Shown: positions 53,515-64,000 of the stretch, piece by piece | Position numbering within the stretch: position 1 is the first letter of the stretch | How the letters are laid out: the number at the start of each line of letters is the position of its first letter | NCBI GenBank assembly: GCA_049324755.1 | Contig: JBMOMZ010000067.1 | Coordinates: 1,280 to 65,279 of the forward strand | Direction: 5' to 3' | Length of the DNA stretch: 64,000 nucleotides | Source: Pseudomonadota bacterium | Lineage (GTDB): Bacteria; Pseudomonadota; Gammaproteobacteria; Enterobacterales; Permianibacteraceae | Notes under the pieces: generated by a model | What the model saw: the letters and a program-made list of their open reading frames with translations, nothing else | Databases searched by the model: none | What the model was told of the DNA's origin: nothing | Program-made: the position numbers and the translations under genes

Positions 53515-53557
53515 TTCTTCTACCGGTATCGCTCTCACCGGTGACAGGCCGGGTGGC

Positions 53558-54718
53558 ATGACACTTTCTTTCTGGTTGTGGGTCTTGTTGGCGGCGGCAC
53601 TCGGCTGGGTGTTTGGCCGCCGTTATGACCGCCACAAGCAGGCGCGCCGTTCGGCCGAACGGGCCAAGCGCTACTTCAAGGGCCTGTCGTATGTGCTGAA
53701 TGATCAGCCGGACAAGGCCATCGATTTATTCGTTGAGCTGGTCAAGGTCGACCCTGACACCGTCGATACCCATTTCGCGCTCGGCAATCTGTACCGGCGC
53801 CGCGGCGAAACCGAACGCGCCATTCGCATTCACCAGAACATTCTGTCGCGCTTGTTGTTGCCGCCGGCGCACCGGGCGCATGCCCAGTTCGAGCTTGGGC
53901 TGGATTATTTCGCCGCCGGCATTCTGGATCGCGCCGAAGCCATTTTTGTCGACCTGCAACAGGATGCGATTTACCGTCGTTCCTGCCAGAAAGAACTGCT
54001 GGCGCTCTACCAGCAAACCCGTGAATGGGGCAAGGCGGCCGATGTCGCCGATGCCATGCGGCAAGAAGGTGCGGCCGATGCCGGGCCGATGCTGGCCCAC
54101 TTCTATTGCGAACTGGCAGAACAGGCGCTGCAGCAAGGCGAGTTCGCGCTGACACGGCAACGGCTGACGACGGCGTTGGAGCTCGACCCGCGCTCGGTAC
54201 GTGCCAGCCTGGTGCTGGCGCGGGTGGCCCGTGCCAGCGATGATGATGCGGCATTCGTGGCGGCGGTCGAGCGGGTGTTGCAGCAGGATGCGGCGCTGTT
54301 CGTCGAAGTGCTGCCGCTGCTGGAACAATGGGGCGCCAGCCATCCCGAGCAAGAACGGCAGTTGCTGCAGCAGGCCATTCAGGCGGGGGCCGGTGCCAGC
54401 GTGGTACTGGCATTGGCTGAGCGCATTCGTGTTGCGGACGGTGATCGGGCAACCGGCGAATACTTGATTGCGCAGTTGAAGCTGCGGCCGAGTTTGCGCG
54501 AGCTCCAGCGCTTGGTGGAGCTGCATGTGCAGCATGCCAGCGGCAGTACCAAAGAGAGCCTGGCGCTGCTGCAGGATGTGCTGCAACGCCTGGTTGCGCG
54601 TTTGCCGCGTTACCGGTGCCGGCGCTGCGGATTTCAGGGCCAGCACATTCACTGGCGTTGCCCGGGTTGCAAAACCTGGAACAGCGTGCGGCCGGTGACC
54701 GGTATTGAAGGCGAGTAA
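53558..54718 (+). CDS. lapB: lipopolysaccharide assembly protein LapB (YciM)
   Basis: N-terminal TM helix, TPR repeats, and a C-terminal rubredoxin-type metal site YRCRRCGFQGQHIHWRCPGCKTWNS. Confidence 0.9.
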   Translation: MTLSFWLWVLLAAALGWVFGRRYDRHKQARRSAERAKRYFKGLSYVLNDQPDKAIDLFVELVKVDPDTVDTHFALGNLYRRRGETERAIRIHQNILSRLLLPPAHRAHAQFELGLDYFAAGILDRAEAIFVDLQQDAIYRRSCQKELLALYQQTREWGKAADVADAMRQEGAADAGPMLAHFYCELAEQALQQGEFALTRQRLTTALELDPRSVRASLVLARVARASDDDAAFVAAVERVLQQDAALFVEVLPLLEQWGASHPEQERQLLQQAIQAGAGASVVLALAERIRVADGDRATGEYLIAQLKLRPSLRELQRLVELHVQHASGSTKESLALLQDVLQRLVARLPRYRCRRCGFQGQHIHWRCPGCKTWNSVRPVTGIEGE

Positions 54719-54876
54719 GCGGTTTTGGATTGCAATGCCTGTTGCGACGGGTGCGTGGACCGCTCAGCTTCCATCACCGTGAACAACAGAAGAGGAGAGG
54801 GTGAACCTCTCGGCTGGCCGAGCCATTCGGTAGTGGCGCCAGCGTCGACATTCCCATCGGTATACGAGACCAAACC

Positions 54877-55569
54877 ATGATCGATCCGAAAATCATTGTG
54901 GCCCTGGATTACGACCAGCAAGCCAAGGCCTTGGCCTTGGCCGATCAGCTCGACCCGGCGCAATGCCGGCTGAAGATCGGCAAGGAGATGTTCACCAAAT
55001 TCGGGCCGGAGTTGGTGCGGACCATACAGCAACGCGGCTTTCAGGTATTTCTCGATCTGAAATTTCACGACATTCCCAACACCGTTGCCGGTGCGGTCAA
55101 AGCCGCCGCCGACCTCGGCGTCTGGATGGTTAATGTGCATGCCAGCGGCGGTCCGAAGATGATGGCGGCCGCACGCGAAGCCTTGCAGGGCTATGGCGCC
55201 CAGCGGCCGCTGTTGATTGCCGTCACCGTGTTGACCTCGTTCGATGCCGAGCAGTTGGCGGCCATCGGCATCAACCGCAGTCTCGACGAACATGTGCTGG
55301 CGCTGGCCAAGCTCACCGAGCAGGCCGGTCTGGATGGGGTGGTCTGCTCGGCGCGGGAAGCGAGCGCCTTGCGGGCACAGTCGGGCGCCGGCTTCTGTCT
55401 GGTGACGCCAGGTATTCGTCCGGCCGGCAGTGCCGCCGGTGATCAGGTCCGCACCCTGACGCCACAAGAGGCTCTCCAGGCCGGCAGCAGTTATCTGGTG
55501 ATTGGCCGCCCCATCACCGGTGCGTCGGATCCGCTCAAGGCTTTGTGCGAGATTGCTGAATCGCTGTAA
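54877..55569 (+). CDS. pyrF: orotidine 5'-phosphate decarboxylase
   Basis: Motifs [18 protein letters not shown] and LVIGRPIT. Confidence 0.95.
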
Positions 55570-55714
55570 GACACGCTGGAGCGCAGGTAACCGGTCTTCC
55601 TACCATGCGCCCCGTGCCCCGGACGGCACCTGACACGCAGGAAGCGTGTCAGGCCGCAAGCGCAAGGATGCGCCGCTGCGGCACTGATTCCCCTACGGAT
55701 ATGGAGACCCTCAC

Positions 55715-56032
55715 ATGCGTAATCTGATTGCTGCTGCCGCGTTCACCCTGTTCGCCGTTATCGCTCCGGCGCACGCCAATTCGGCGCCGGCCGCCAAAGC
55801 CACTGAGCAAGTGGTGACCGAAGCGAAAGCCGAAGCCCGGCTGAACATCAACACCGCTTCCGCCAAGGAAATCGCCAAAGGCATGAAAGGCATAGGCATC
55901 AAGAAGGCCGAAGCCATCGTCGCCCACCGCGAAGCCAATGGCCCGTTCAAGTCGGTAGAGGACTTGCTGAAAGTCAAAGGTGTTGGCCCGGCGACGCTGC
56001 ACAAGAATGCCGCCCGGATCGCCGTCAAGTAA
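55715..56032 (+). CDS. comEA: ComEA family helix-hairpin-helix DNA-binding protein
   Basis: Signal peptide, then LNINTASAKEIAKGMKGIGIKKAEAIVAHREANGPFKSVEDLLKVKGVGPATL. Confidence 0.85.
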   Translation: MRNLIAAAAFTLFAVIAPAHANSAPAAKATEQVVTEAKAEARLNINTASAKEIAKGMKGIGIKKAEAIVAHREANGPFKSVEDLLKVKGVGPATLHKNAARIAVK

Positions 56033-56048
56033 GTCGGTGCGGTGCAAC

Positions 56049-56076
56049 AAAAAAGGCCTCGAATGAGGCCTTTTTT
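56049..56076 (+). terminator. rho-independent terminator after comEA
   Basis: aaaaaa-ggcctc-gaat-gaggcc-tttttt. Confidence 0.8.
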
Positions 56077-56178
56077 CATGGTTTGCCAGTTTCCTGGCGT
56101 GTCAGAAAATTTTCCAAATTTTTAAGGACTTTGCTATAGTCGCGGCCGGTTTAGCCACGGCGATTGGAGAGGGCACGG

Positions 56179-57636
56179 ATGTCCACCTTAGCGTGCAGCA
56201 CCTTGCTGCCAGTCATTTTGTCCGGCGGAGCGGGTACAAGGCTTTGGCCATTGTCCCGCGAGATGTACCCCAAGCAGCTGTTGCCTCTGGTCGGTGAGCA
56301 CAGCTTGGTGCAACAAACCGTTCAGCGAATTCAACACAGCGACTGGCCGGTACAGGTAGCCGAGCCCTTGATTATCGCCAATCAGGAACATCGTTTCCTG
56401 ATCGCCGAACAATGCCGGGCCGTAGGTGTCTCCGCGCGCATTGTTCTGGAGCCGATTGGCCGCAATACCGCGCCGGCGATGACAGCGGCAGCGATGTTGG
56501 CGGGCGAAGGCAGCGACGGTTTGCTGCTGGTCATGCCGGCTGACCACATCATCAAGGACAGCAAGGCGTTTCAGCAGGCGGTAGCCAAAGCCATTCCGGT
56601 GGCACAGGCTGGCGCCATCGTGACGTTCGGCATTGTGCCGACCGAACCGCACACCGGCTATGGCTATCTGCGCACCGGCAAACCGGTGGCAGACGGCGTG
56701 GTGGCGCTTGATGCGTTTGTCGAAAAGCCCAGTCGCGAACGTGCCACGCAATTTCTGCAGCAGGGTGGTTACTTCTGGAACGGCGGCATTTTCCTGGTGC
56801 GCGCGGATGTCTGGCTGCGTTGCGTGGAGGCGCTGCAGCCGGCGATGTTGCAAGCCTGCCGTGACGCATGCAGCAAGGCGAGTCATGACCTGGATTTTGT
56901 CAGGTTGGACAAGGCGGCCTTTGAGCAATCGCCATCCGACTCGATTGATTACGCCGTGATGGAGCGATTGCCGGAGATCAGCAACGGCCCCGCCGCCGCC
57001 GTGGTACCGCTACAAGCGGGGTGGTCCGATTTGGGGTCCTGGCCTTCCGTAGCCGAGCAATTGCCTGCTGACGAAAACGGCAATCGGACCCGCGGCGATG
57101 TCGTCAGCATTCAATCACAAAACAATCTGGCGCTCGCCGAGCGACGCATGATTGCACTGGTTGGCGTTGAGAACCTGATTGTGGTGGAGACCGCTGACGC
57201 CGTGTTGGTGGCGGACAGTCGCCACGCACAAGCGGTCAAAGATGTGGTGCAGCATCTCAACAAGCTCGGCCGTGACGAGGCGTTGACTCATCGCCGTGTC
57301 TATCGGCCCTGGGGCAACTATGAAGGCATTGATGAAGGCCCGCGCTTTCAAGTCAAGCGTATCACGGTCAACCCCGGCGCTTCCTTGTCGTTACAGATGC
57401 ATTACCACCGTGCCGAGCACTGGATTGTTGTGACCGGCACCGCAGAAGTGACCTGTGGTGAGGAAACTTTCCTGCTGACCGAGAACCAATCGACGTTCAT
57501 TCCGCTCGGAAAGACGCATCGGTTATGCAATCCCGGAAAGGTTCCGTTGGAAATGATAGAGGTTCAATCCGGTGCCTATCTGGGAGAGGACGATATTGTC
57601 CGGTTTTCGGATGTCTATGGCAGACAAGCAACATAA
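56179..57636 (+). CDS. manC: mannose-1-phosphate guanylyltransferase / mannose-6-phosphate isomerase (type II PMI-GMP)
   Basis: Trimmed to ATG 56179. Motifs ILSGGAGTRLWPLSR, GYGYL and FVEKP, with a C-terminal cupin (LSLQMHYHRAEHWIVVTGTAEV). Confidence 0.9.
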   Translation: MSTLACSTLLPVILSGGAGTRLWPLSREMYPKQLLPLVGEHSLVQQTVQRIQHSDWPVQVAEPLIIANQEHRFLIAEQCRAVGVSARIVLEPIGRNTAPAMTAAAMLAGEGSDGLLLVMPADHIIKDSKAFQQAVAKAIPVAQAGAIVTFGIVPTEPHTGYGYLRTGKPVADGVVALDAFVEKPSRERATQFLQQGGYFWNGGIFLVRADVWLRCVEALQPAMLQACRDACSKASHDLDFVRLDKAAFEQSPSDSIDYAVMERLPEISNGPAAAVVPLQAGWSDLGSWPSVAEQLPADENGNRTRGDVVSIQSQNNLALAERRMIALVGVENLIVVETADAVLVADSRHAQAVKDVVQHLNKLGRDEALTHRRVYRPWGNYEGIDEGPRFQVKRITVNPGASLSLQMHYHRAEHWIVVTGTAEVTCGEETFLLTENQSTFIPLGKTHRLCNPGKVPLEMIEVQSGAYLGEDDIVRFSDVYGRQAT

Positions 57637-57652
57637 CAGGGATGCTTAGAAA

Positions 57653-58759
57653 ATGGCGCTGATATTCTTGGTTGCAGGCGCGCGACCAAATTTCATGAAG
57701 ATTGCTCCGATTGTTCGTGCACTCGAGGAACGCTCCGACCGATTCCGGTATCGGATTGTTCACACCGGCCAACATTTTGATCATGAAATGAGCGATGTTT
57801 TTTTTGAAGAACTCGGTATTCCCACTCCGGACTACCATCTCGGCTGTGGTGGCGGCAGTCACGCTCAGCAGACTGCCAAGATTATGGTGGCTTTCGAAGA
57901 AACCTGTCAGAAAGAACGACCGGACTGTGTGCTAGTTGTCGGCGATGTCAACTCCACGCTGGCCTGTTCGATCGTCGCAAAGAAAATGGGGATTCGTGTA
58001 GCGCATGTTGAGGCGGGTTTGCGCAGTGGCGACATGAGTATGCCGGAAGAGATTAACCGGCTAGTCACAGACTCAATTTCAGATTGGTTTTTTGTCACCG
58101 AACCGTCCGGATATGAAAACCTGATAAAAGAGGGAAAGTCGCCTGACGTCGTTTTCGATGTTGGCCACGTTATGATCGACAACTTGCTGTACCAACATAA
58201 AAAGCTTGAGCAAACCGATAAGTCACAATTCATCAGTGAGCCCATCAAGAAACAGCTAGGTCGATATGGCGTTGTTACACTTCATCGGCCATCTAATGTT
58301 GATGATGCCGTCGTTTTTTTGCGCATCATGACAGCACTGAATACTGTTGCTGAGTCAATTTCGCTCGTATTCCCCGTGCATCCGCGAACGCGGCAGATGA
58401 TTGAAAAGTGTGGGATTACGCCTCACCAGAATATCCTGCTTACGAAGCCCCTATCCTATATGGATTTTTTAAATCTCTGGAAGGATGCAGTTGTCGTGAT
58501 GACCGATAGTGGAGGTTTGCAAGAGGAAACTACGGGATTAGGTGTGCCGTGCTTAACGCTTCGAGAAAATACCGAACGGCCAGTCACGGTAGAGCAGGGC
58601 TCAAATGTTTTGGTGGGTACGAGCACACATATGATTGTTGATGCGGCATTTATGACCCTGGTTGGTGGAGGCAAGACCGGAAGGAGGCCTGCCCTGTGGG
58701 ACGGTGCGGCTTCTAGGAGGATTGTAGGTCGATTATCAGATTTATTTTCACAATGCTGA
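57653..58759 (+). CDS. wecB: UDP-N-acetylglucosamine 2-epimerase (non-hydrolysing)
   Basis: Motifs GARPNFMKIAP, VVGDVNSTLA, HVEAGLRS, PEEINR and DSGGLQEETT. The drop in GC begins here. Confidence 0.9.
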   Translation: MALIFLVAGARPNFMKIAPIVRALEERSDRFRYRIVHTGQHFDHEMSDVFFEELGIPTPDYHLGCGGGSHAQQTAKIMVAFEETCQKERPDCVLVVGDVNSTLACSIVAKKMGIRVAHVEAGLRSGDMSMPEEINRLVTDSISDWFFVTEPSGYENLIKEGKSPDVVFDVGHVMIDNLLYQHKKLEQTDKSQFISEPIKKQLGRYGVVTLHRPSNVDDAVVFLRIMTALNTVAESISLVFPVHPRTRQMIEKCGITPHQNILLTKPLSYMDFLNLWKDAVVVMTDSGGLQEETTGLGVPCLTLRENTERPVTVEQGSNVLVGTSTHMIVDAAFMTLVGGGKTGRRPALWDGAASRRIVGRLSDLFSQC

Positions 58760-59156
58760 TCGCGGTTTAGTGGTGATAATGGAAATGCATTGTTGAGGTG
58801 TTTTGGTGCTTTACATGATTCACGCATACCTGATTCAAATCTGCACTAAGCCCCTCAAATTCTGCGAACAAGCTTCGTGAAACAGGAGGTAAATGCACCA
58901 TAAGCCTGATTAATATTTTACATGTTTAAACTTTGGAGCAGGCATTGCTCATTAAAATCTAGCTGTATGCAGTTATGTAATGCTGTAAGAATTTCATAGA
59001 CTAGTGATGTAAAGAGCAGTATACGAATTAATATTTCTAAGGCGTACATTAAATCGCATTAACAAATTTTGAAACTTTAACCAACAGGCGTAGAACTTCC
59101 GGAGTCGCTAGTCGGTTCATCTGCTCCGGACCAAATTAAGACTCTAGAGAATCCAC

Positions 59157-59975
59157 ATGCGAACTTTTTCTGCGAAGCCGACGGCGCTGTTTCAATGCAT
59201 ATGGCGGAATCGCTCATTAATAGCTGCTTCAGCGAGACGAGAGGTTGTCGGTCGCTATCAAGGCTCGATATTCGGATTGCTCTGGTCGTTTTTCAATCCT
59301 CTTTTGATGTTGGCTGTTTATACTTTCGTGTTCACCGAAGTCTTCAAGGCGAGGTGGAGTTCGAATGGGTATGTGAAGGTTGAATTTGCTTTGGTACTGT
59401 TTGCGGGGTTGATTGTCTTCAATATATTCTCGGAATGCATTAATAGGGCACCTAATCTGATACTTGCTAATCCAAATTATGTAAAGAAGGTTGTGTTCCC
59501 GCTTGAGGTTTTGCCAGTAATAATTTTGATATCCTCACTGTACCATGCGTTGGTTGGTATGTTTGTTTGGTTTGTTGCATACATCATTTTTGTAGGTATG
59601 CCAAACTGGTCCGCTGTACTGTTGCCGCTATTGCTTCTTCCTTTTTCATTATTTGTGCTGGGTCTGAGTTGGATCCTTGCTTCGCTGGGGGTTTTTCTTC
59701 GTGATGTATCACAGTTTGTGGCGGTCATAACGACGGTTTTGCTTTTCATGAGTCCGATATTCTATCCGGTAAACGCTTTGCCAGAAATATACCACGGTAT
59801 CGTATATTTCAATCCAATCACGCCGATTGTGGAAATGGTTCGCGAAATTCTCTACTGGGGAATTTGGGTGAGAGTAGAGGTGATCGCTGGTTACTGGCTA
59901 TTCTGCATGCTAATCGCATGGATTGGATTTGCGTGGTTTCAAAAAACTCGTAAGGGATTCGCAGATGTCCTTTGA
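59157..59975 (+). CDS. wzm: O-polysaccharide ABC transporter permease (ABC-2 type, Wzm)
   Basis: 272 aa. The N-terminus IWRNRSLIAASARREVVGRYQGSIFGLLWSFFNPLLM is typical of Wzm/TagG/KpsM, followed by six hydrophobic segments. Confidence 0.85.
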   Translation: MRTFSAKPTALFQCIWRNRSLIAASARREVVGRYQGSIFGLLWSFFNPLLMLAVYTFVFTEVFKARWSSNGYVKVEFALVLFAGLIVFNIFSECINRAPNLILANPNYVKKVVFPLEVLPVIILISSLYHALVGMFVWFVAYIIFVGMPNWSAVLLPLLLLPFSLFVLGLSWILASLGVFLRDVSQFVAVITTVLLFMSPIFYPVNALPEIYHGIVYFNPITPIVEMVREILYWGIWVRVEVIAGYWLFCMLIAWIGFAWFQKTRKGFADVL

Positions 59976-61353
59976 AACGGCGATAATGGTAAGTGGCGTA
60001 AGTAAGTGCTTCAACATCTATGAATCACCTCGTGATCGATTGAAACAGTTTATCTTTCCCCGGTTGCAACAGGTTTTATCGCTAGAAAAGAAAAAGTATT
60101 TCAGAGAGTTTTGGGCGCTTAAAAGTGTTTCGTTCGACGTGTTCAGAGGCGAAACAGTTGGCATCATAGGTCGGAACGGTAGCGGCAAATCCACACTATT
60201 GCAGATCATTTGTGACACGCTGAGTCCATCGGAAGGGGCTGTTTCTGTGAGAGGCAGGGTCGCTGCCTTGTTGGAGCTGGGGTCTGGTTTCAATCCCGAG
60301 TTTTCGGGGATGGAGAATATCCGTATCAACGCAGCAGTGTTGGGGTTGTCTGACGATCAAATATCTGAGCGACTGGATCGGATCATTTCTTTCTCTGAAA
60401 TTGGGCAATTTATTCACCAGCCTGTGAAGACTTATTCAAGTGGAATGATGGTGAGATTGGCATTTTCAGTCGCTATCAATGTCGACCCCGATATCCTTGT
60501 GATTGATGAAGCTCTTTCGGTAGGTGACGAGCGTTTTCAACGAAAATGTTTGTCAAAAATTGAGTCATTGAAGCGAGATGGGGCAACAATCCTGTTCGTA
60601 TCGCACTCTGGCGCCCAGATTGTGGAATTGTGCGACCGCGCAGTGCTATTAGACAGCGGTCGTCTATTAATGGTTGGACCGCCGAAAGATGCCATAAAGG
60701 AGTATCAAAGGCTTCTGTATTCCCCTGAGTCAGAAAGGGAAAACATACGGAATAGGCTTTTGAGTAAAAAAACGGGGACATCAAATTTTGTTGATGTTAA
60801 TTACTCTTTTTCCGAGGTCGAAACCGCTGCTGATAATCGCGGGGAATCTGAAGAAAGGGAAACATTTGACCCCACATTTGTTTCCACCAGTGAAGTCATT
60901 TTTGAGTCACATGGACCGGTTATTTCGCCACCGGTCATATTGACATTGAGTGGTGAGCAGGTAAACGGGCTCGTTAGGGGGCGAAGATATCGAGTTAGAT
61001 ACTCGGTTTCTTTTTGTCGTTCAGCGAGTAATGTCAGATTTGGTATGTCTTTTAGAACTGCAACTGGCGTTGCAATAAGTGGTGTCTTGTCGTCGCCCTC
61101 ACTATTGGAGTCTATACCTGCAGTTAGGGAGGGGGCGATTGCAAATGTGACATTTGAGTTTTCTTGCCGCCTCAATACGGGCGTCTATTTCCTTAATGTA
61201 GGAGTCTTTGGTTGTGTTGGTGAAGAGGAGGTGGTTCTGCATCGTCGTGCAGAGACCATTGTATTTAGGGTGCTTCCTGTTCAGAGAAACATCGTAACCG
61301 AAGCGGTATGCTTTGAGTATCAGCCGTTAATAGAGTTATTCCAAGATGAGTAA
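59965..61353 (+). CDS. wzt: O-polysaccharide ABC transporter ATP-binding protein Wzt with C-terminal carbohydrate-binding-type domain
   Basis: ATG 59965 overlaps the wzm end by 11 nt. Walker A GRNGSGKST, signature YSSGMMVRLAF, Walker B ILVIDEALSVGD. About 215 extra C-terminal residues form beta-rich sequence (RYRVRYSVSF...GVYFLNVGVF...IVFRVLP). Confidence 0.85.
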   Translation: MSFETAIMVSGVSKCFNIYESPRDRLKQFIFPRLQQVLSLEKKKYFREFWALKSVSFDVFRGETVGIIGRNGSGKSTLLQIICDTLSPSEGAVSVRGRVAALLELGSGFNPEFSGMENIRINAAVLGLSDDQISERLDRIISFSEIGQFIHQPVKTYSSGMMVRLAFSVAINVDPDILVIDEALSVGDERFQRKCLSKIESLKRDGATILFVSHSGAQIVELCDRAVLLDSGRLLMVGPPKDAIKEYQRLLYSPESERENIRNRLLSKKTGTSNFVDVNYSFSEVETAADNRGESEERETFDPTFVSTSEVIFESHGPVISPPVILTLSGEQVNGLVRGRRYRVRYSVSFCRSASNVRFGMSFRTATGVAISGVLSSPSLLESIPAVREGAIANVTFEFSCRLNTGVYFLNVGVFGCVGEEEVVLHRRAETIVFRVLPVQRNIVTEAVCFEYQPLIELFQDE

Positions 61354-64000
61354 TAGATTGCTTGTGTCGTCGCCAAATGGCGGTGGGATTTTCCTGATAG
61401 ACCGTGGCGTTATTTATCGGATTGATGCCAGGAGTGCGACGGGGTTATATGTTTCTTCTAAAGCGCTACTGCGTTGCTTTCAGCCTAGTTCATTGACGTT
61501 TCTAGATAGATATTCTGAGTCTACCGTATTGTCCCATGTGGTAGATGGAGTTGATGATATCCATGACGTTACGTTGCTTGATTCATTCGTATATGTTGTC
61601 AGCACCGGGAAAAATCAAATCATAAAACTCAATCTTCAAGGTGAGGAGAGTCAGCGGTGGGTTTTTCCTGGCGAACCCGATTCCTGGCACATTAACAGTA
61701 TAACTTGCTGGAACGGGCGGATAATTTTCTCCGCCTTCGCTGATGTTCGCAGGCATCGAGGGTATAAGGGCGCAAGTGATGGTGCCGGTTTCGTGCAGGA
61801 TTTGCTATCTGGGGAAAGGATTATCAAGGGGCTATCGCAACCCCATAGCTTGACTCCATTTAATGGAAATCTGTTGATTGCAAACTCAGAAAAGAAAGAG
61901 GTTTTGTGCTTTTCTCCGTCTACGGAATTGTTGTGGAGGATGAGATTTGATGGCTATGTTAGAGGAATTGCAGTATCCGAAGATTCTCTCTATGTCGGTT
62001 TGAGTCGCTCTCGTAATATTGATGATGCGGGGCTTCAATCGGCACAAATTGTTGAAGTTGGTTTGGAGGATTTTTGCGAGCGTTGGCGTTCTGACATACC
62101 AGCTAACGAGATTTACGATATTAGAGTAATTCCGCCAGAGGCGGATCTGGTTGCTCTGTTGTCTAGCACGACCGCAGATTCTGTCAGCTATTGTGTTTCC
62201 GAGAATGAATCCGCTAACCGACTTGTTGAAGAGCGTATTGTGTGGGCGCAGTCAATGGAGTCCGAGCTGCAGGCCGCGCGCGGGTTGGTAGAAGAACGAA
62301 CGCTTTGGGCGCAGTCGCTGGAGTCCGAGTTGCAGGCCGCGCGCGGGTTAGTGGAAGAACGAACTGCTTGGGCACAGTCATTGGAATCTGAAGTAAAGAG
62401 TATAGGGAAACTGCTGGAAGAGCGTACTGCGTGGGCGCAGTCGCTGGAGTCCGAGTTGCAGGTGGTTCGCGGGTTGGTAGAAGAGCGAACGGTTTGGGCG
62501 CAGTCATTGGAATCCGAAGTAAAAAGCACAGTGCATCTGCTGGAAGAGCGTACTGCGTGGGCTCAGTCGCTGGAGTCTGCTCTGAAGGCAGCTCAGGAAT
62601 TGATTAGAGACAAAGATGCTTTGGCTGACTCCTTAAATGCTGTGATTGCCGAGCAAACAAGAGCTGCTAGACAGCTTGAGCATGCGCTCGCCGAGCGTGA
62701 TCAGTTAGTACATAGTCTTTATGCCTCTAGGTCTTGGCGCATTACGCAGCCATTACGTAATATTCGGCATTATGCTTCTAAGGCAACGTATCTACTACGG
62801 AAATTGCCAAATGGGTTCAAGTATCTTGCTCGTCGTGATTTTTCTGGATTCCTTGGTCGTTTAAAGGCTATTAGACGGGATAGTGCGTTCTATCAAGTTG
62901 CAAATCAAACGTATGAGCAGAAAGTAGGGTTGCGTTGGGGCGTCATCGCTACTCGCCACACAGCATTCATAGGACATTTAGTCAAATCTCGATTGCAAAA
63001 ACACGGCTGGTCAGTTGATTTGTTTTTTACTGAGCAACAGCAGTACGACCATGACTTTTATGTCGTGATATGTCCGCAAATGTTCAAATCTCTTCCCCCT
63101 GGAGAGAAAAGAATTTCTTTTCAAATGGAGCAATCCGTTAGTTCGCGTTGGTTTACATCTGATTATTTGGATGTGCTAAATAACTCGCTTGCTGTTCTGG
63201 AGTATTCACTCAAGAATATTGAGTTCCTTAGCGAGAAGGGAATTGCTTACCCGCATGTCCACTACTTGCCTGTTGGCGCAGATCCTTCATATATCAAAAG
63301 TGGTAAAAAAATAGATAAAAAATATGACGTTCTTTTCTATGGAGATGCCAATAGCTCGGCTCGTCGAAGAGAGCTTCTAAAAGTCCTTCGAGAAAATTTT
63401 CAGGTAAAGATTTGTAGTGAAGTTTTTGGCGAAGAAATGACAGAGGAAATTCGCCAGGCAAAGGTTGTCGTGAATTTGCACTACTACGAAAACGCCCTAC
63501 TCGAAATGCCACGCATCCAAGAGTGTATATCGTTGGGCGTGCCGGTCATATCAGAGTCTTCTCAGGACCAGTCCGACTATCCAGAAATCTTGGGGGCCGT
63601 TAGATTCTTTGCTCAGGGCGATACAAACGGAATGATCGAAACCGTTAGAAAGTGTCTTGAAAGCCCTATTCCTGAGAATGAGGTTTCTCGGTCTGCTATT
63701 CTAGGCTCAGAGCGGTTCGCGTTTATGTTTGACCGTTTCTTGGTCGCTATGGGGTATTTATCATCAAACAAACTAGCTGTGGATGGCTTACCCTTGCCAG
63801 TAGATGTGAAAAGAGTCGCACTATCAATGCCTGAGACTATCGCTCGACGAAGGATATTCGAGGCTAATCGTCCATTGAATTGTGCCGTTTTCGATGGTGT
63901 GAGGCTTCGTCCTGGCTGGGTTGGGTGCGGGCTTTCCTATGCAAATCTCGCGCGGCATGCATTGAAAAACAAGTTGAGTAGACTTACTGTTCTTGAGGAT
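61346..64000 (+). CDS. multidomain O-antigen biosynthesis protein: DUF4915/TIGR03032-like domain, repeat coiled coil, GT-B-like domain, GT25 domain (3' end outside the window)
   Basis: My own translation from ATG 61346 (overlapping the wzt stop, ATGAGTAA) is open for 885 codons to nt 64000. It is not in the ORF track because it has no stop. Motifs are listed in the findings. Confidence 0.8.
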   Translation, partial: MSNRLLVSSPNGGGIFLIDRGVIYRIDARSATGLYVSSKALLRCFQPSSLTFLDRYSESTVLSHVVDGVDDIHDVTLLDSFVYVVSTGKNQIIKLNLQGEESQRWVFPGEPDSWHINSITCWNGRIIFSAFADVRRHRGYKGASDGAGFVQDLLSGERIIKGLSQPHSLTPFNGNLLIANSEKKEVLCFSPSTELLWRMRFDGYVRGIAVSEDSLYVGLSRSRNIDDAGLQSAQIVEVGLEDFCERWRSDIPANEIYDIRVIPPEADLVALLSSTTADSVSYCVSENESANRLVEERIVWAQSMESELQAARGLVEERTLWAQSLESELQAARGLVEERTAWAQSLESEVKSIGKLLEERTAWAQSLESELQVVRGLVEERTVWAQSLESEVKSTVHLLEERTAWAQSLESALKAAQELIRDKDALADSLNAVIAEQTRAARQLEHALAERDQLVHSLYASRSWRITQPLRNIRHYASKATYLLRKLPNGFKYLARRDFSGFLGRLKAIRRDSAFYQVANQTYEQKVGLRWGVIATRHTAFIGHLVKSRLQKHGWSVDLFFTEQQQYDHDFYVVICPQMFKSLPPGEKRISFQMEQSVSSRWFTSDYLDVLNNSLAVLEYSLKNIEFLSEKGIAYPHVHYLPVGADPSYIKSGKKIDKKYDVLFYGDANSSARRRELLKVLRENFQVKICSEVFGEEMTEEIRQAKVVVNLHYYENALLEMPRIQECISLGVPVISESSQDQSDYPEILGAVRFFAQGDTNGMIETVRKCLESPIPENEVSRSAILGSERFAFMFDRFLVAMGYLSSNKLAVDGLPLPVDVKRVALSMPETIARRRIFEANRPLNCAVFDGVRLRPGWVGCGLSYANLARHALKNKLSRLTVLED
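62222..62599 (+). repeat. six in-frame tandem 63-bp (21-aa) repeats encoding coiled coil
   Basis: Units at 62222, 62285, 62348, 62411, 62474 and 62537 encode L[VL]EER[IT]xWAQS[LM]ES[EA][LV].... They are exact multiples of three heptads. Confidence 0.9.

What the first reader, a model, noticed from the sequence alone, without database searches (positions are those of the whole stretch)
62222..62599. Six phase-perfect 63-bp tandem repeats encode the coiled coil: a potentially length-variable ruler
The six units each encode 21 aa, which is three heptads: 62222 LVEERIVWAQSMESELQAARG, 62285 LVEERTLWAQSLESELQAARG, 62348 LVEERTAWAQSLESEVKSIGK, 62411 LLEERTAWAQSLESELQVVRG, 62474 LVEERTVWAQSLESEVKSTVH, 62537 LLEERTAWAQSLESALKAAQE. 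Gain or loss of a unit therefore preserves both reading frame and heptad register. Non-adjacent units share identical stretches: ~31 nt between units 2 and 4, and 26 nt between units 4 and 6. Units 3 and 5 also share the SLESEVKS variant, suggesting a 126-bp higher-order repeat and recent recombination. If the coiled coil is a ruler as in WbdD/WbbB, unit copy number would quantise O-antigen modal length. It could vary between strains or within populations by recombination or slippage. The minus-strand track ORFs 62188-62529 and 62214-62507 are mere shadows of this array.
Basis: partly seen in the sequence, partly recalled or inferred. Interest (0 to 1): 0.65.

Follow-up and report, generated by a model that had tools for sequence, protein, structure and literature searches.

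The report
Repeat-built coiled-coil O-antigen ruler
Six old, diverged 21-residue repeats make up most of a roughly 25-nm coiled-coil rod that separates an uncharacterised beta-propeller domain from a WbbB-type O-antigen polymerase, so this is very probably a known kind of sugar-chain 'molecular ruler', built in an unusually modular way.

Summary
Six in-phase 63-bp units lie at 62222-62599, with the stated 31-nt and 26-nt shared runs and a 126-bp higher-order period.

They sit in a 1038-aa gene (61346 to beyond the window end) that follows wzm and a wzt with a Wzt_C sugar-binding module. The gene reads: DUF4915 six-bladed beta-propeller, about 170 aa of uninterrupted heptad coiled coil, an SRSWRITQPLR junction, then a GT1-like and a GT25-like module. 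The last 500 aa are 41% identical (E 1e-128) to Raoultella terrigena WbbB, a prototype single-protein polymerase/terminator/ruler. The ruler reading is therefore supported by homology and architecture, not by experiment.

The "recent, slippage-prone" part is not supported. Units are 57-81% identical, synonymous divergence is near saturation (pS about 0.67), and the peptide core is under purifying selection (pN/pS 0.14).

No second allele exists in public data, so copy-number variation of this array is untested. In relatives, rulers do vary by whole repeats. Two Dickeya proteins are identical at 596 of 597 aligned residues but carry 6 versus 12 copies of a 14-aa unit. Among related linkers with significant repeats, 22 of 25 have periods that are multiples of seven.

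DUF4915 in the terminator slot is the new element.

The parts
59157..59975 (+). wzm, the ABC-2 permease of the O-antigen exporter
   Evidence: Pfam ABC2_membrane, E 9.6e-29. An identical gene is called in L001.
59965..61353 (+). wzt, the ATP-binding subunit with a C-terminal carbohydrate-binding module (Wzt_C)
   Evidence: Pfam ABC_tran 1.5e-21 and Wzt_C 3.1e-20. The 462-aa gene call comes from L001. It is 41% identical to R. terrigena Wzt, with only weak similarity in the sugar-binding part. It overlaps the next gene by 8 nt.
61346..64000 (+). WbbB-like multidomain gene. It runs off the window; the full product, P0001, is 1038 aa.
   Evidence: Translation, full-length P0001 and alignment with 13 homologues of the same architecture.
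61346..62140 (+). DUF4915 / TIGR03032 domain (aa 1-265): a six-bladed beta-propeller and the candidate chain-terminating module
   Evidence: Pfam PF16261, E 3.5e-16. AF2 gives pLDDT 94 and 24 strands. Foldseek top hits are YWTD/NHL-type propellers. There are 18 invariant residues across 96 sequences.
62141..62722 (+). Helical linker (aa 266-459). The regular heptad coiled coil runs from about aa 287 to 460.
   Evidence: AF2 helices 266-367 and 375-459. The register is constant and the hydrophobic classes are mod-7 positions 1, 2 and 5.
62222..62599 (+). Six 63-bp (21-aa, three-heptad) tandem units (aa 293-418) with core L[VL]EERTxWAQSLESE[LV]
   Evidence: The core has pN/pS 0.14 and mean pS is 0.67.
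62306..62577 (+). 126-bp (42-aa) higher-order repeat, 2.2 copies, 87% matches
   Evidence: TRF; identity at offset 126 is 0.74.
62306..62336 (+). 31-nt exact repeat, with its partner at 62432-62462. This is the longest substrate for unequal recombination.
   Evidence: The Logan contig L001 breaks here.
62411..62436 (+). 26-nt exact repeat, with its partner at 62537-62562
62726..62758 (+). Junction motif SRSWRITQPLR (aa 461-471) at the proximal end of the coiled coil
   Evidence: Found in 52 hits of the protein search and in 31 genome loci, including WbbB as SLSWKLTMPVR. T467, P469 and R471 are invariant.
62933..63751 (+). GT1-like glycosyltransferase module (aa 530-802)
   Evidence: Weak Pfam Glyco_trans_1_2 hit. 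AF2 pLDDT is mostly 80-94. It aligns with WbbB residues 592 onward.
63803..64000 (+). Start of the GT25-like module (aa 820 to about 1010; only aa 820-885 are inside the window)
   Evidence: Weak PDB sequence hits to procollagen galactosyltransferase 1, a GT25 enzyme to my knowledge. PF01755 is precomputed for P0006 and P0007. It aligns with the WbbB C-terminus.
62188..62529 (-). Antisense shadow ORFs (62188-62529 and 62214-62507); not genes
   Evidence: Listed mechanically. They lie inside the homologue-supported plus-strand gene, and their translations are repeats of the antisense frame.

Best explanation
**What it is.** The six repeats are the main building blocks of a parallel, oligomeric coiled-coil spacer. 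They supply 126 of about 170 residues, or 18 of about 24 heptads. That is roughly 19 nm of a 25-nm rod, using the standard rise of about 0.15 nm per residue.

**Where it sits.** The spacer belongs to a single-polypeptide O-antigen assembly enzyme of the WbbB type, in a horizontally acquired, low-GC, ABC-transporter-dependent O-antigen cluster of a Permianibacter genome.

**How it most likely works (inferred from WbbB and WbdD).**
- The C-terminal GT1-like and GT25-like modules polymerise the lipid-linked glycan at the membrane.
- The rod holds the N-terminal DUF4915 beta-propeller at a fixed distance from them.
- Only chains long enough to reach the distal module are capped.
- Capped chains are then recognised by the Wzt carbohydrate-binding module and exported.
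- Rod length therefore sets modal chain length. Each 21-aa unit is worth about 3 nm and can be gained or lost without disturbing frame or heptad phase.

**How the array evolved.** It arose by ancient duplications, the last one a 126-bp double unit. It is now kept by purifying selection on the peptide. It is a slowly evolving modular ruler, not a hypermutable switch.

**Shown versus inferred.** Shown here: the repeats, the heptad continuity, the helical prediction, the WbbB homology, the gene context, and repeat-number variation in relatives. Inferred: the oligomeric state, ruler function in this protein, and DUF4915 acting as terminator.
For: **Repeats and coiled coil**
- Repeats and phase were reproduced.
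- One heptad register holds from aa 287 to 460. Mod-7 classes 1, 2 and 5 are 76%, 96% and 58% hydrophobic. There is a 3.5-residue spectral peak that two control domains lack, and there are no prolines.
- AF2 predicts helix for 266-367 and 375-459.

**WbbB homology**
- P0001 residues 533-1033 are 41% identical (E 1e-128) to the 1107-aa ORF of R. terrigena NBRC 14941.
- The first 404 residues of that ORF match PDB 5fa0/5fa1 at E 3.9e-272.
- That ORF follows wzm and wzt, just as the window gene does.
- The SxSWxxTxPxR junction motif is shared.
- Wzt carries the Wzt_C module.

**Domain swapping at the distal end**
- The same polymerase module is fused through a coiled coil to methyltransferase-like or WbbB-type (GT99) N-terminal regions in other genomes; these were identified by reading the sequences, not by domain search.
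- That places DUF4915 in the terminator slot.
- DUF4915 genes sit directly behind a wzt with Wzt_C, with an 8-nt overlap, in three unrelated loci.

**Published basis**
- A coiled-coil ruler is described as characteristic of terminator proteins and as established for E. coli O9a WbdD and K. pneumoniae O12 WbbB (PMC11231755).
- Insertions or truncations in the WbdD coil shift modal chain length (PMC5082667).

**Modularity in relatives**
- Linker length ranges from 63 to 458 aa in 52 related proteins carrying the junction motif.
- 25 of 54 linkers have significant tandem repeats, and 22 of those 25 have periods that are multiples of 7.
- 526 of 563 spacings of the W-motif are multiples of 7.
- Two Dickeya proteins are identical at 596 of 597 aligned residues but have 6 versus 12 copies of a 14-aa unit.
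- P0049 and P0064 are identical at 1446 of 1448 positions apart from an 84-aa (3 x 28) indel.
- Pseudomonas and Raoultella WbbB orthologues (90-94% identical) differ by indels in the coiled coil, including tandem duplications.

**Age and selection**
- Mean pS is 0.67 and core pN/pS is 0.14.
Against: - There is no experimental or population data for this protein. No second allele was found in any collection searched.
- The AF2 monomer model breaks the helix at residues 368-374 and has low confidence (pLDDT 44-66) across the linker. A folded-back hairpin is therefore not excluded.
- Glycines end units 1, 2 and 4, with a fourth glycine at the second-last residue of unit 3 (residues 313, 334, 354, 376).
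- DUF4915 has no known activity. Foldseek finds only generic propellers, and no paper mentions the family. It could be a binding domain and not a terminator.
- About 1.8 kb of the source contig beyond the gene was not seen, so a separate terminator gene cannot be excluded.
- Some natural indels in WbbB rulers are not heptad multiples: 18 and 4 aa in Raoultella, 40 and 62 aa in Pseudomonas.
- The copy-number differences seen in relatives could in part be assembly collapse.
Confidence: 0.72

Rival explanations
1. The coiled coil is only an oligomerisation or scaffolding element that brings the polymerase modules and the propeller into one complex. Chain length would then be set by kinetics or stoichiometry, and repeat number would have no quantitative effect on it.
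For: The region has the wide hydrophobic seam (three hydrophobic positions per heptad) typical of oligomerising coils. Linker lengths in homologues vary widely, from 63 to 458 aa, with no obvious constraint. To my knowledge, stoichiometry also influences chain length in the WbdA/WbdD system (King et al. 2014, cited in PMC11231755).
Against: Oligomerisation needs only a few heptads, not about 24. In both tested prototypes, rod length does determine chain length (PMC11231755, PMC5082667). Wide length variation between serotype-specific clusters is what a tunable ruler predicts.
Confidence: 0.13
2. The repeats fold back into an antiparallel helical hairpin or bundle. The propeller would then lie close to the glycosyltransferases, and unit number would not translate linearly into distance.
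For: The AF2 monomer model gives helix 266-367, a break at 368-374, then helix 375-459. Glycines end three units, with a fourth in unit 3.
Against: pLDDT is below 50 at the break, and monomer predictions of parallel coiled coils commonly fold back as an artefact (my own knowledge). A single uninterrupted heptad register runs across the whole 170 aa, including the predicted turn. Homologous arrays with the same motif have no glycine at unit boundaries. WbdD is a parallel trimer (PMC5082667).
Confidence: 0.08
3. The array is a hypermutable contingency locus. Frequent slippage or recombination would change unit number within populations and switch O-antigen length on short time scales.
For: Exact 31-nt and 26-nt repeats lie 126 bp apart. 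The array has a higher-order repeat structure. A related Dickeya array shows 6 versus 12 copies.
Against: Units are only 57-81% identical, and synonymous divergence is near saturation. The truly polymorphic Dickeya array has 96%-identical units. The two independent assemblies are identical as far as they overlap. A 31-nt repeat is near the lower limit for efficient homologous recombination (my own knowledge).
Confidence: 0.05
4. The conserved core (EERTxWAQSLESEL) is a repeated docking site for a partner protein or for the lipid-linked glycan. Its copy number would then matter through valency and not through length. This is not exclusive of the ruler model.
For: The core is under strong purifying selection while the unit tails are relaxed (pN/pS 0.14 versus 0.66). 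The same W-containing motif recurs at 40-50% identity in arrays attached to DUF4915 and in proteins with methyltransferase or sulfotransferase domains. That is unusual for a plain spacer.
Against: The closest full-length homologues (P0002-P0010) have entirely different linker sequences, so the motif is dispensable for this enzyme type. The motif's hydrophobic residues fall on the heptad seam, so coil stability or oligomer specificity explains the conservation.
Confidence: 0.1

Closest known systems
WbbB (Klebsiella pneumoniae O12 / Raoultella terrigena), a single protein combining polymerase, terminator and coiled-coil ruler
   Same: It has the same C-terminal GT1-like and GT25-like polymerase module (41% identity over 500 aa). 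The SxSWxxTxPxR junction motif is shared. A central coiled coil occupies the same position. The gene order wzm-wzt-gene is the same. Tandem duplications also occur in the WbbB coil.
   Different: The N-terminal module is a DUF4915 six-bladed beta-propeller and not the GT99 beta-Kdo transferase. The coil is longer, about 170 aa against roughly 100 aa by my reading of the WbbB sequence. It is also built from six 21-aa units carrying a motif that WbbB lacks. The Wzt sugar-binding part is only weakly similar, which suggests a different terminal residue.
WbdD (E. coli O9a / K. pneumoniae O3), a kinase-methyltransferase terminator on a trimeric coiled-coil ruler
   Same: A catalytic or candidate-catalytic head is held away from the membrane-proximal polymerase by a long coiled coil. 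Terminated chains are exported by a Wzt with a carbohydrate-binding module (PMC5082667, PMC11231755). Stand-alone DUF4915-coiled-coil proteins in Dickeya copy the WbdD layout.
   Different: In the window the polymerase is fused to the ruler and not recruited to it. The head domain is unrelated. No sequence similarity to WbdD was tested or found.
K. pneumoniae O7 ORF6 (methyltransferase-kinase, coiled coil, two GT2 modules)
   Same: It has the same terminator, coiled coil, polymerase fusion logic. Its orthologues exist with or without the C-terminal glycosyltransferase modules (PMC11231755). The DUF4915 family shows the same pattern.
   Different: Both the head and the polymerase modules differ.
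ERTAWAxSLDxEL repeat arrays in uncharacterised proteins with methyltransferase, sulfotransferase or no recognised head domains (P0049, P0078, P0086, P0100, P0104, P0107)
   Same: They share the W-containing core motif at 40-50% identity, and motif spacing is in heptad multiples. One pair shows whole-unit copy-number differences between near-identical alleles.
   Different: Their period is 28 aa (426 of 563 spacings), whereas the window's is 21 aa, which is rare (20 of 563; only P0166 also has five in a row). Their arrays reach more than 20 copies. Their head domains differ.

Membership tests
WbbB-type single-protein O-antigen polymerase/terminator | A C-terminal GT1 + GT25 polymerase module homologous to WbbB | tested here: met
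   41% identity over P0001 533-1033 versus L073 ORF 592-1105, E 1e-128. The L073 ORF matches PDB 5fa0/5fa1 over its first 404 residues, which to my knowledge are the WbbB GT99 structures.
WbbB-type single-protein O-antigen polymerase/terminator | A central coiled coil between the distal module and the polymerase | tested here: met
   Continuous heptad register from aa 287 to 460. AF2 predicts helix for 266-459 except residues 368-374.
WbbB-type single-protein O-antigen polymerase/terminator | An N-terminal GT99 beta-Kdo transferase as chain terminator | tested here: not met
   The N-terminus is a DUF4915 beta-propeller. Nothing in P0001 residues 1-530 aligns significantly with the WbbB N-terminal domain.
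WbbB-type single-protein O-antigen polymerase/terminator | Encoded next to wzm/wzt, with a carbohydrate-binding module on Wzt | tested here: met
   wzm at 59157-59975 and wzt with Wzt_C at 59965-61353. The order is the same in L073.
Coiled-coil molecular ruler (WbdD/WbbB paradigm) | Changing coil length changes O-antigen modal chain length | not testable with these tools
   This needs LPS gels of engineered repeat variants. The published basis covers only WbdD and WbbB (PMC5082667, PMC11231755).
Coiled-coil molecular ruler (WbdD/WbbB paradigm) | A chain-terminating activity at the membrane-distal end of the coil | tested here: inconclusive
   DUF4915 occupies that position. It has 18 invariant residues and co-localises with a wzt carrying Wzt_C in three loci. 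Its activity is unknown.
Coiled-coil molecular ruler (WbdD/WbbB paradigm) | A parallel oligomeric (dimer or trimer) extended rod | not testable with these tools
   Only monomer AF2 was available, and it gives a low-confidence hairpin.
Canonical heptad coiled coil | 3.5-residue hydrophobic periodicity in one register, no helix breakers, predicted helix | tested here: met
   One caveat: there are four glycines, and the seam has three hydrophobic positions per heptad (a-d-e or g-a-d).
Slippage-prone contingency tandem repeat | Near-identical DNA units | tested here: not met
   Units are 57-81% identical, the longest exact repeat is 31 nt, and pS is 0.36-1.0. The polymorphic Dickeya array shows 96% matches between units.
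Slippage-prone contingency tandem repeat | Copy-number polymorphism among close relatives | tested here: inconclusive
   No second allele of this gene was found. L001 is cut inside unit 2. Polymorphism is seen only in related families.

The most novel reading that the evidence does not exclude
DUF4915 / TIGR03032 may be a previously unrecognised, beta-propeller class of O-antigen chain terminator, or at least of terminal-residue handling module. It would be carried at the tip of rulers assembled from heptad-multiple repeat cassettes.

Natural gain and loss of whole cassettes would then tune O-antigen modal length in discrete steps between strains. Examples are 6 versus 12 units in Dickeya and the six 21-aa units here. 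If so, chain length could be predicted from sequence.
Probability: 0.35. Interest if true: 0.72.

Novelty: new variant of a known kind. Interest (0 to 1): 0.5.

Why it matters
O-antigen chain length affects serum resistance, phage susceptibility and vaccine epitope display. In ABC-transporter-dependent systems it is set by a coiled-coil ruler, according to studies of WbdD and WbbB.

This locus and its relatives add three things:
- The polymerase/ruler chassis is reused with different head modules, among them one (DUF4915) that no paper in the searched library mentions.
- Rulers are commonly built from tandem cassettes whose periods are multiples of seven residues.
- Near-identical alleles differ by whole cassettes.

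Together these give a simple, testable rule for reading modal chain length from sequence. They also provide natural strain pairs, such as the two Dickeya genomes, on which to test it. Finally, they nominate DUF4915 for biochemical work as a new terminator.

Tried and rejected
**Searches for a second allele, to test copy-number variation**
- The 5.8-billion-protein search found only the window's own protein; the next best hit is 45-51% identical.
- The GTDB genome scan gave a best identity of 64%, and only over the C-terminal half.
- An exact-protein look-up of P0001 found nothing on record.
- Two metagenome DNA scans, one with a flank 26-mer and one with the shared 26-mer, returned no hits.
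- The only other occurrence, L001, is truncated inside unit 2, which I read as a k-mer assembly break.

**Sequence and literature searches**
- A PDB sequence search with P0001 gave only weak GT25-like hits and no WbbB match, because only the WbbB N-terminal (GT99) part appeared among PDB hits.
- Pfam and NCBIfam have no family for the repeat. The hits on homologous arrays are generic coiled-coil models: crescentin rod, DUF1319 and TBCA_PH.
- Searching the paper library for DUF4915 and for TIGR03032 found no papers.
- The primary WbbB and WbdD ruler papers and the 2020 review are not in the held library. Statements about them rest on PMC11231755 and PMC5082667.

**Structure**
- Foldseek with the propeller found only generic six-bladed propellers. 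The match to the ManT beta-propeller mannosyltransferase (7qsg, rank 16) is no better than those, so I did not use it as evidence.
- The monomer AF2 model of the whole protein cannot decide rod against hairpin.

**Readings considered and rejected**
- An RNA or other non-coding explanation: the repeats are in frame, and the peptide is under purifying selection.
- Genes on the minus strand: those ORFs are shadows.
- A collapsed assembly as the origin of the array: units are too diverged to collapse, and a second assembly agrees up to 62335.


Full report
**1. Observation**

The window holds six head-to-tail units of exactly 63 bp, starting at 62222, 62285, 62348, 62411, 62474 and 62537.

Tandem Repeats Finder reports period 63 (score 259). 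It also reports a stronger period of 126 at 62306-62577, with 2.2 copies and 87% matches (score 418). The repeat finder agrees.

- a 31-nt identical run between units 2 and 4 (62306-62336 and 62432-62462)
- a 26-nt run between units 4 and 6 (62411-62436 and 62537-62562)
- the SLESEVKS variant shared by units 3 and 5

The units are far from identical: 36-51 of 63 nt, or 57-81%.

A second public assembly, Logan contig L001 from SRR32167792, is 100% identical to window 53554-62335. It ends 30 nt into the 31-nt repeat. That is what a k=31 assembly graph would produce (assuming Logan's k of 31), so I read it as an assembly break and not as variation.

The minus-strand ORFs at 62188-62529 and 62214-62507 exist only as antisense shadows.

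**2. The gene and its surroundings**

The array lies in an ORF that starts at 61346 and runs off the window. The full product, P0001, is 1038 aa.

Upstream genes, in order:

| Gene | Coordinates |
|---|---|
| manC | 56164-57636 |
| UDP-GlcNAc 2-epimerase | 57653-58759 |
| wzm | 59157-59975 |
| wzt, with a Wzt_C carbohydrate-binding module | ends at 61353 |

- wzt overlaps the start of the big gene by 8 nt.
- GC falls from about 0.60 to about 0.45 from roughly 58 kb onward.
- The backbone is Permianibacter: its GyrA clusters at 90% or more with Permianibacter proteins.

This is therefore a horizontally acquired, ABC-transporter-dependent O-antigen cluster.

**3. Anatomy of the protein**

- **aa 1-265: DUF4915 / TIGR03032**. 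With a 96-sequence alignment, AF2 gives a confident six-bladed beta-propeller (pLDDT 94, 24 strands). A helix begins at residue 268 in that model and at 266 in the full-length one. Foldseek finds only generic YWTD/NHL-type propellers. Eighteen residues are invariant in the family, among them D71, H73, D112, H115, N117, H167, R206, S220, R223, E255 and Y257.
- **aa 266-459: helical** in the full-length model, with a low-confidence break at 368-374.
- **aa 287-460: one unbroken heptad register.** Mod-7 classes 1, 2 and 5 are 76%, 96% and 58% hydrophobic. The hydrophobicity spectrum peaks at 3.5 residues, unlike the two control domains. There are no prolines and four glycines.
- **The six repeats (aa 293-418)** supply 18 of about 24 heptads.
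- **aa 461-471: SRSWRITQPLR**, a motif conserved in all homologues.
- **aa 530-802:** a GT1-like module.
- **aa 820 to about 1010:** a GT25-like module.

**4. It is a WbbB relative**

The GTDB scan returned 80 loci that match the C-terminal half. One is Raoultella terrigena NBRC 14941.

- There, a 1107-aa ORF follows wzm and wzt.
- Its first 404 residues match PDB 5fa0/5fa1 at E 3.9e-272. To my knowledge those entries are the WbbB GT99 beta-Kdo transferase.
- P0001 residues 533-1033 align to residues 592-1105 of that ORF at 41% identity, E 1e-128.
- WbbB has the same junction motif, SLSWKLTMPVR, at the end of its coiled coil.

According to PMC11231755, WbbB carries two C-terminal glycosyltransferases that polymerise the O12 repeat and an N-terminal glycosyltransferase that caps it with beta-Kdo. 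The same paper says the coiled coil "has been established to be a molecular ruler" in E. coli O9 and K. pneumoniae O12, and that only terminated chains are exported, via the module on Wzt. PMC5082667 summarises the WbdD experiments: a parallel trimer holds the catalytic heads about 200 Å from the membrane, and insertions or truncations raise or lower modal chain length.

**5. The head module is swapped**

In other genomes the same polymerase module is fused through a coiled coil to different N-terminal regions. I identified these by reading the sequences, not by a domain search.
- Methyltransferase-like: L002-L006, L008, L012, L013, L018, L023.
- WbbB-type (GT99): Raoultella L073 and Pseudomonas L076, L078.
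- DUF4915: the window, with L017 and L025 matching over the full protein length.

DUF4915 therefore sits in the slot that known terminators occupy.

DUF4915 genes directly follow a wzt with Wzt_C, with an 8-nt overlap, in three unrelated contexts:
- the window
- the closest homologue's locus L082, which also carries rmlBDAC
- Dickeya L084, where the protein is DUF4915 plus coiled coil only, the WbdD layout

The window's Wzt is 41% identical to R. terrigena Wzt overall, but only weakly similar in the sugar-binding part. That fits a different terminal residue. No paper in the library mentions DUF4915 or TIGR03032.

**6. Age of the repeats and selection on them**

- Nei-Gojobori comparison of the six units gives pS of 0.36-1.0, with a mean of 0.67.
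- pN is 0.09 in codons 1-16 (ratio 0.14) and 0.51 in codons 17-21 (ratio 0.66).
- The units are therefore old duplicates. The core L[VL]EERTxWAQSLESE[LV] is conserved at the protein level, and the unit tails are free to drift.
- The last event was a 126-bp double-unit duplication, and its copies are now 13% diverged.
- The longest exact repeat, 31 nt, is marginal for homologous recombination (my own knowledge).

The array is not a hypermutable locus. By contrast, the Dickeya array that really differs between genomes has 42-bp units with 96% matches.

**7. The motif is a family**

- The core W-motif recurs at 40-50% identity in long arrays. These are attached to DUF4915 or sit in proteins with methyltransferase or sulfotransferase domains.
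- An exhaustive phmmer search of 1.84 billion representative proteins found 75 clusters at E of 0.001 or better.
- Across all retrieved proteins, 526 of 563 spacings between consecutive motifs are multiples of 7. Spacing 28 dominates (426 cases). Spacing 21 is rare (20 cases), and besides the window only P0166 has five in a row.
- The closest full-length homologues have entirely different linker sequences. The motif is therefore one of several interchangeable coil cassettes and not a requirement of the enzyme.

**8. Do such rulers vary?**

| Comparison | Result |
|---|---|
| Linker length in 52 related proteins carrying the junction motif | 63 to 458 aa; the window has 203 |
| Linkers with a tandem repeat stronger than all 100 shuffles | 25 of 54; 22 of those 25 have periods of 14, 28, 42, 56, 63 or 70 |
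| Dickeya sp. CSL RW240 (P0018) vs D. aquatica (P0045) | 596 of 597 aligned residues identical; 6 vs 12 copies of a 14-aa unit |
| Metagenomic P0049 vs P0064 | 1446 of 1448 identical; one clean 84-aa (3 x 28) indel |
| Raoultella WbbB orthologues (90-94% identical) | an 18-aa tandem duplication and a 4-aa indel in the coil |
| Pseudomonas WbbB orthologues (92% identical) | indels of 40 and 62 aa in a coil made of 21-bp sub-repeats |

So the "length-variable ruler" idea is well supported for the family. Two caveats apply. Assembly collapse could contribute to some of these differences, and some indels are not heptad multiples. For the window's own array no comparison is possible.

**9. Verdict**

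The structural and functional reading, a coiled-coil ruler of the WbbB/WbdD kind, is strongly supported by homology, architecture and context, but it remains an inference for this protein.

The dynamic reading, recent recombination or within-population slippage, is not supported by the divergence of the units.

Three things are new relative to the literature I could reach:
- a DUF4915 beta-propeller in the terminator slot
- the cassette-like, heptad-multiple construction of these rulers
- whole-cassette differences between near-identical alleles

I rate this a new variant of a known kind, with interest 0.5.

Noticed in passing
window 62222-62599: There is a GC mosaic inside the array. Units 1, 2 and 4 have GC3 of 0.71-0.81 and unit 6 has 0.57. 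Units 3 and 5 have 0.29-0.48, close to the rest of the gene (about 0.42). The host backbone is GC 0.60 and the island 0.45. The 'ELQAARG'-type units may come from a GC-rich donor, or from gene conversion.
   Followed up: partly
window 61346-62140: DUF4915/TIGR03032 is a confident six-bladed beta-propeller with 18 invariant residues. It sits where WbbB has its GT99 terminator. It is always directly downstream of a wzt with Wzt_C, with an 8-nt overlap in the window, L082 and L084. No paper in the searched library mentions it.
   Followed up: partly
window 62726-62758; L073 ORF aa 495-505: A conserved motif, S-x-S-W-x-[LIV]-T-x-P-[LV]-R, marks the membrane-proximal end of the coiled coil. It is present in WbbB, in DUF4915 proteins and in the methyltransferase-like fusions. 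It is also present in stand-alone DUF4915-coil proteins that have no glycosyltransferase modules. Its function is unknown; it may be a membrane or partner anchor.
   Followed up: partly
L084 11013-11279 (Dickeya sp. CSL RW240); P0045 (D. aquatica): Two Dickeya DUF4915-coiled-coil proteins are identical at 596 of 597 aligned residues but carry 6 versus 12 copies of a 14-aa unit. The DNA unit is 42 bp with 96% matches. This is a natural strain pair for testing the ruler rule.
   Followed up: partly
L076 and L078 (Pseudomonas spp.), WbbB-type ORFs: These orthologues are 92% identical, yet their coiled coils differ by 40 and 62 aa. The L078 coil is built from 21-bp (one-heptad) QQxLAEQ sub-repeats, with 120- and 144-bp higher-order repeats.
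   Followed up: partly
L073, L067, L071 (Raoultella spp.): The prototype R. terrigena WbbB carries an 18-aa tandem duplication (AE.AEREKL..TLAQLQD) in its coiled coil. Two congeneric orthologues that are 90-94% identical lack it. 18 aa is not a heptad multiple.
   Followed up: partly
P0049 vs P0064; P0078, P0086, P0100, P0104, P0107: Very long arrays of a 28-aa ERTAWAKSLDxEL repeat (more than 20 copies in the longest) occur in uncharacterised proteins with methyltransferase, sulfotransferase or no recognised head domains. One near-identical pair differs by exactly three units.
   Followed up: partly
L001 end = window 62335: The only other public contig carrying this locus stops 30 nt into the 31-nt intra-array repeat. 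I read this as a k=31 assembly break. It shows how such rulers get truncated in short-read or unitig collections and so escape protein databases.
   Followed up: yes
window about 57600-64000: A low-GC (0.44-0.47) O-antigen island abuts a GC 0.60 backbone just after pyrF, a ComEA-like gene and manC. The backbone is Permianibacter by GyrA clustering.
   Followed up: partly
L082 12844-15348: In the closest homologue's locus an 834-aa protein with no Pfam hit directly follows the DUF4915 gene. A GT2 and a GtrA-like gene come after it. Whether the window's contig has an equivalent beyond 64000 could not be seen.
   Followed up: no
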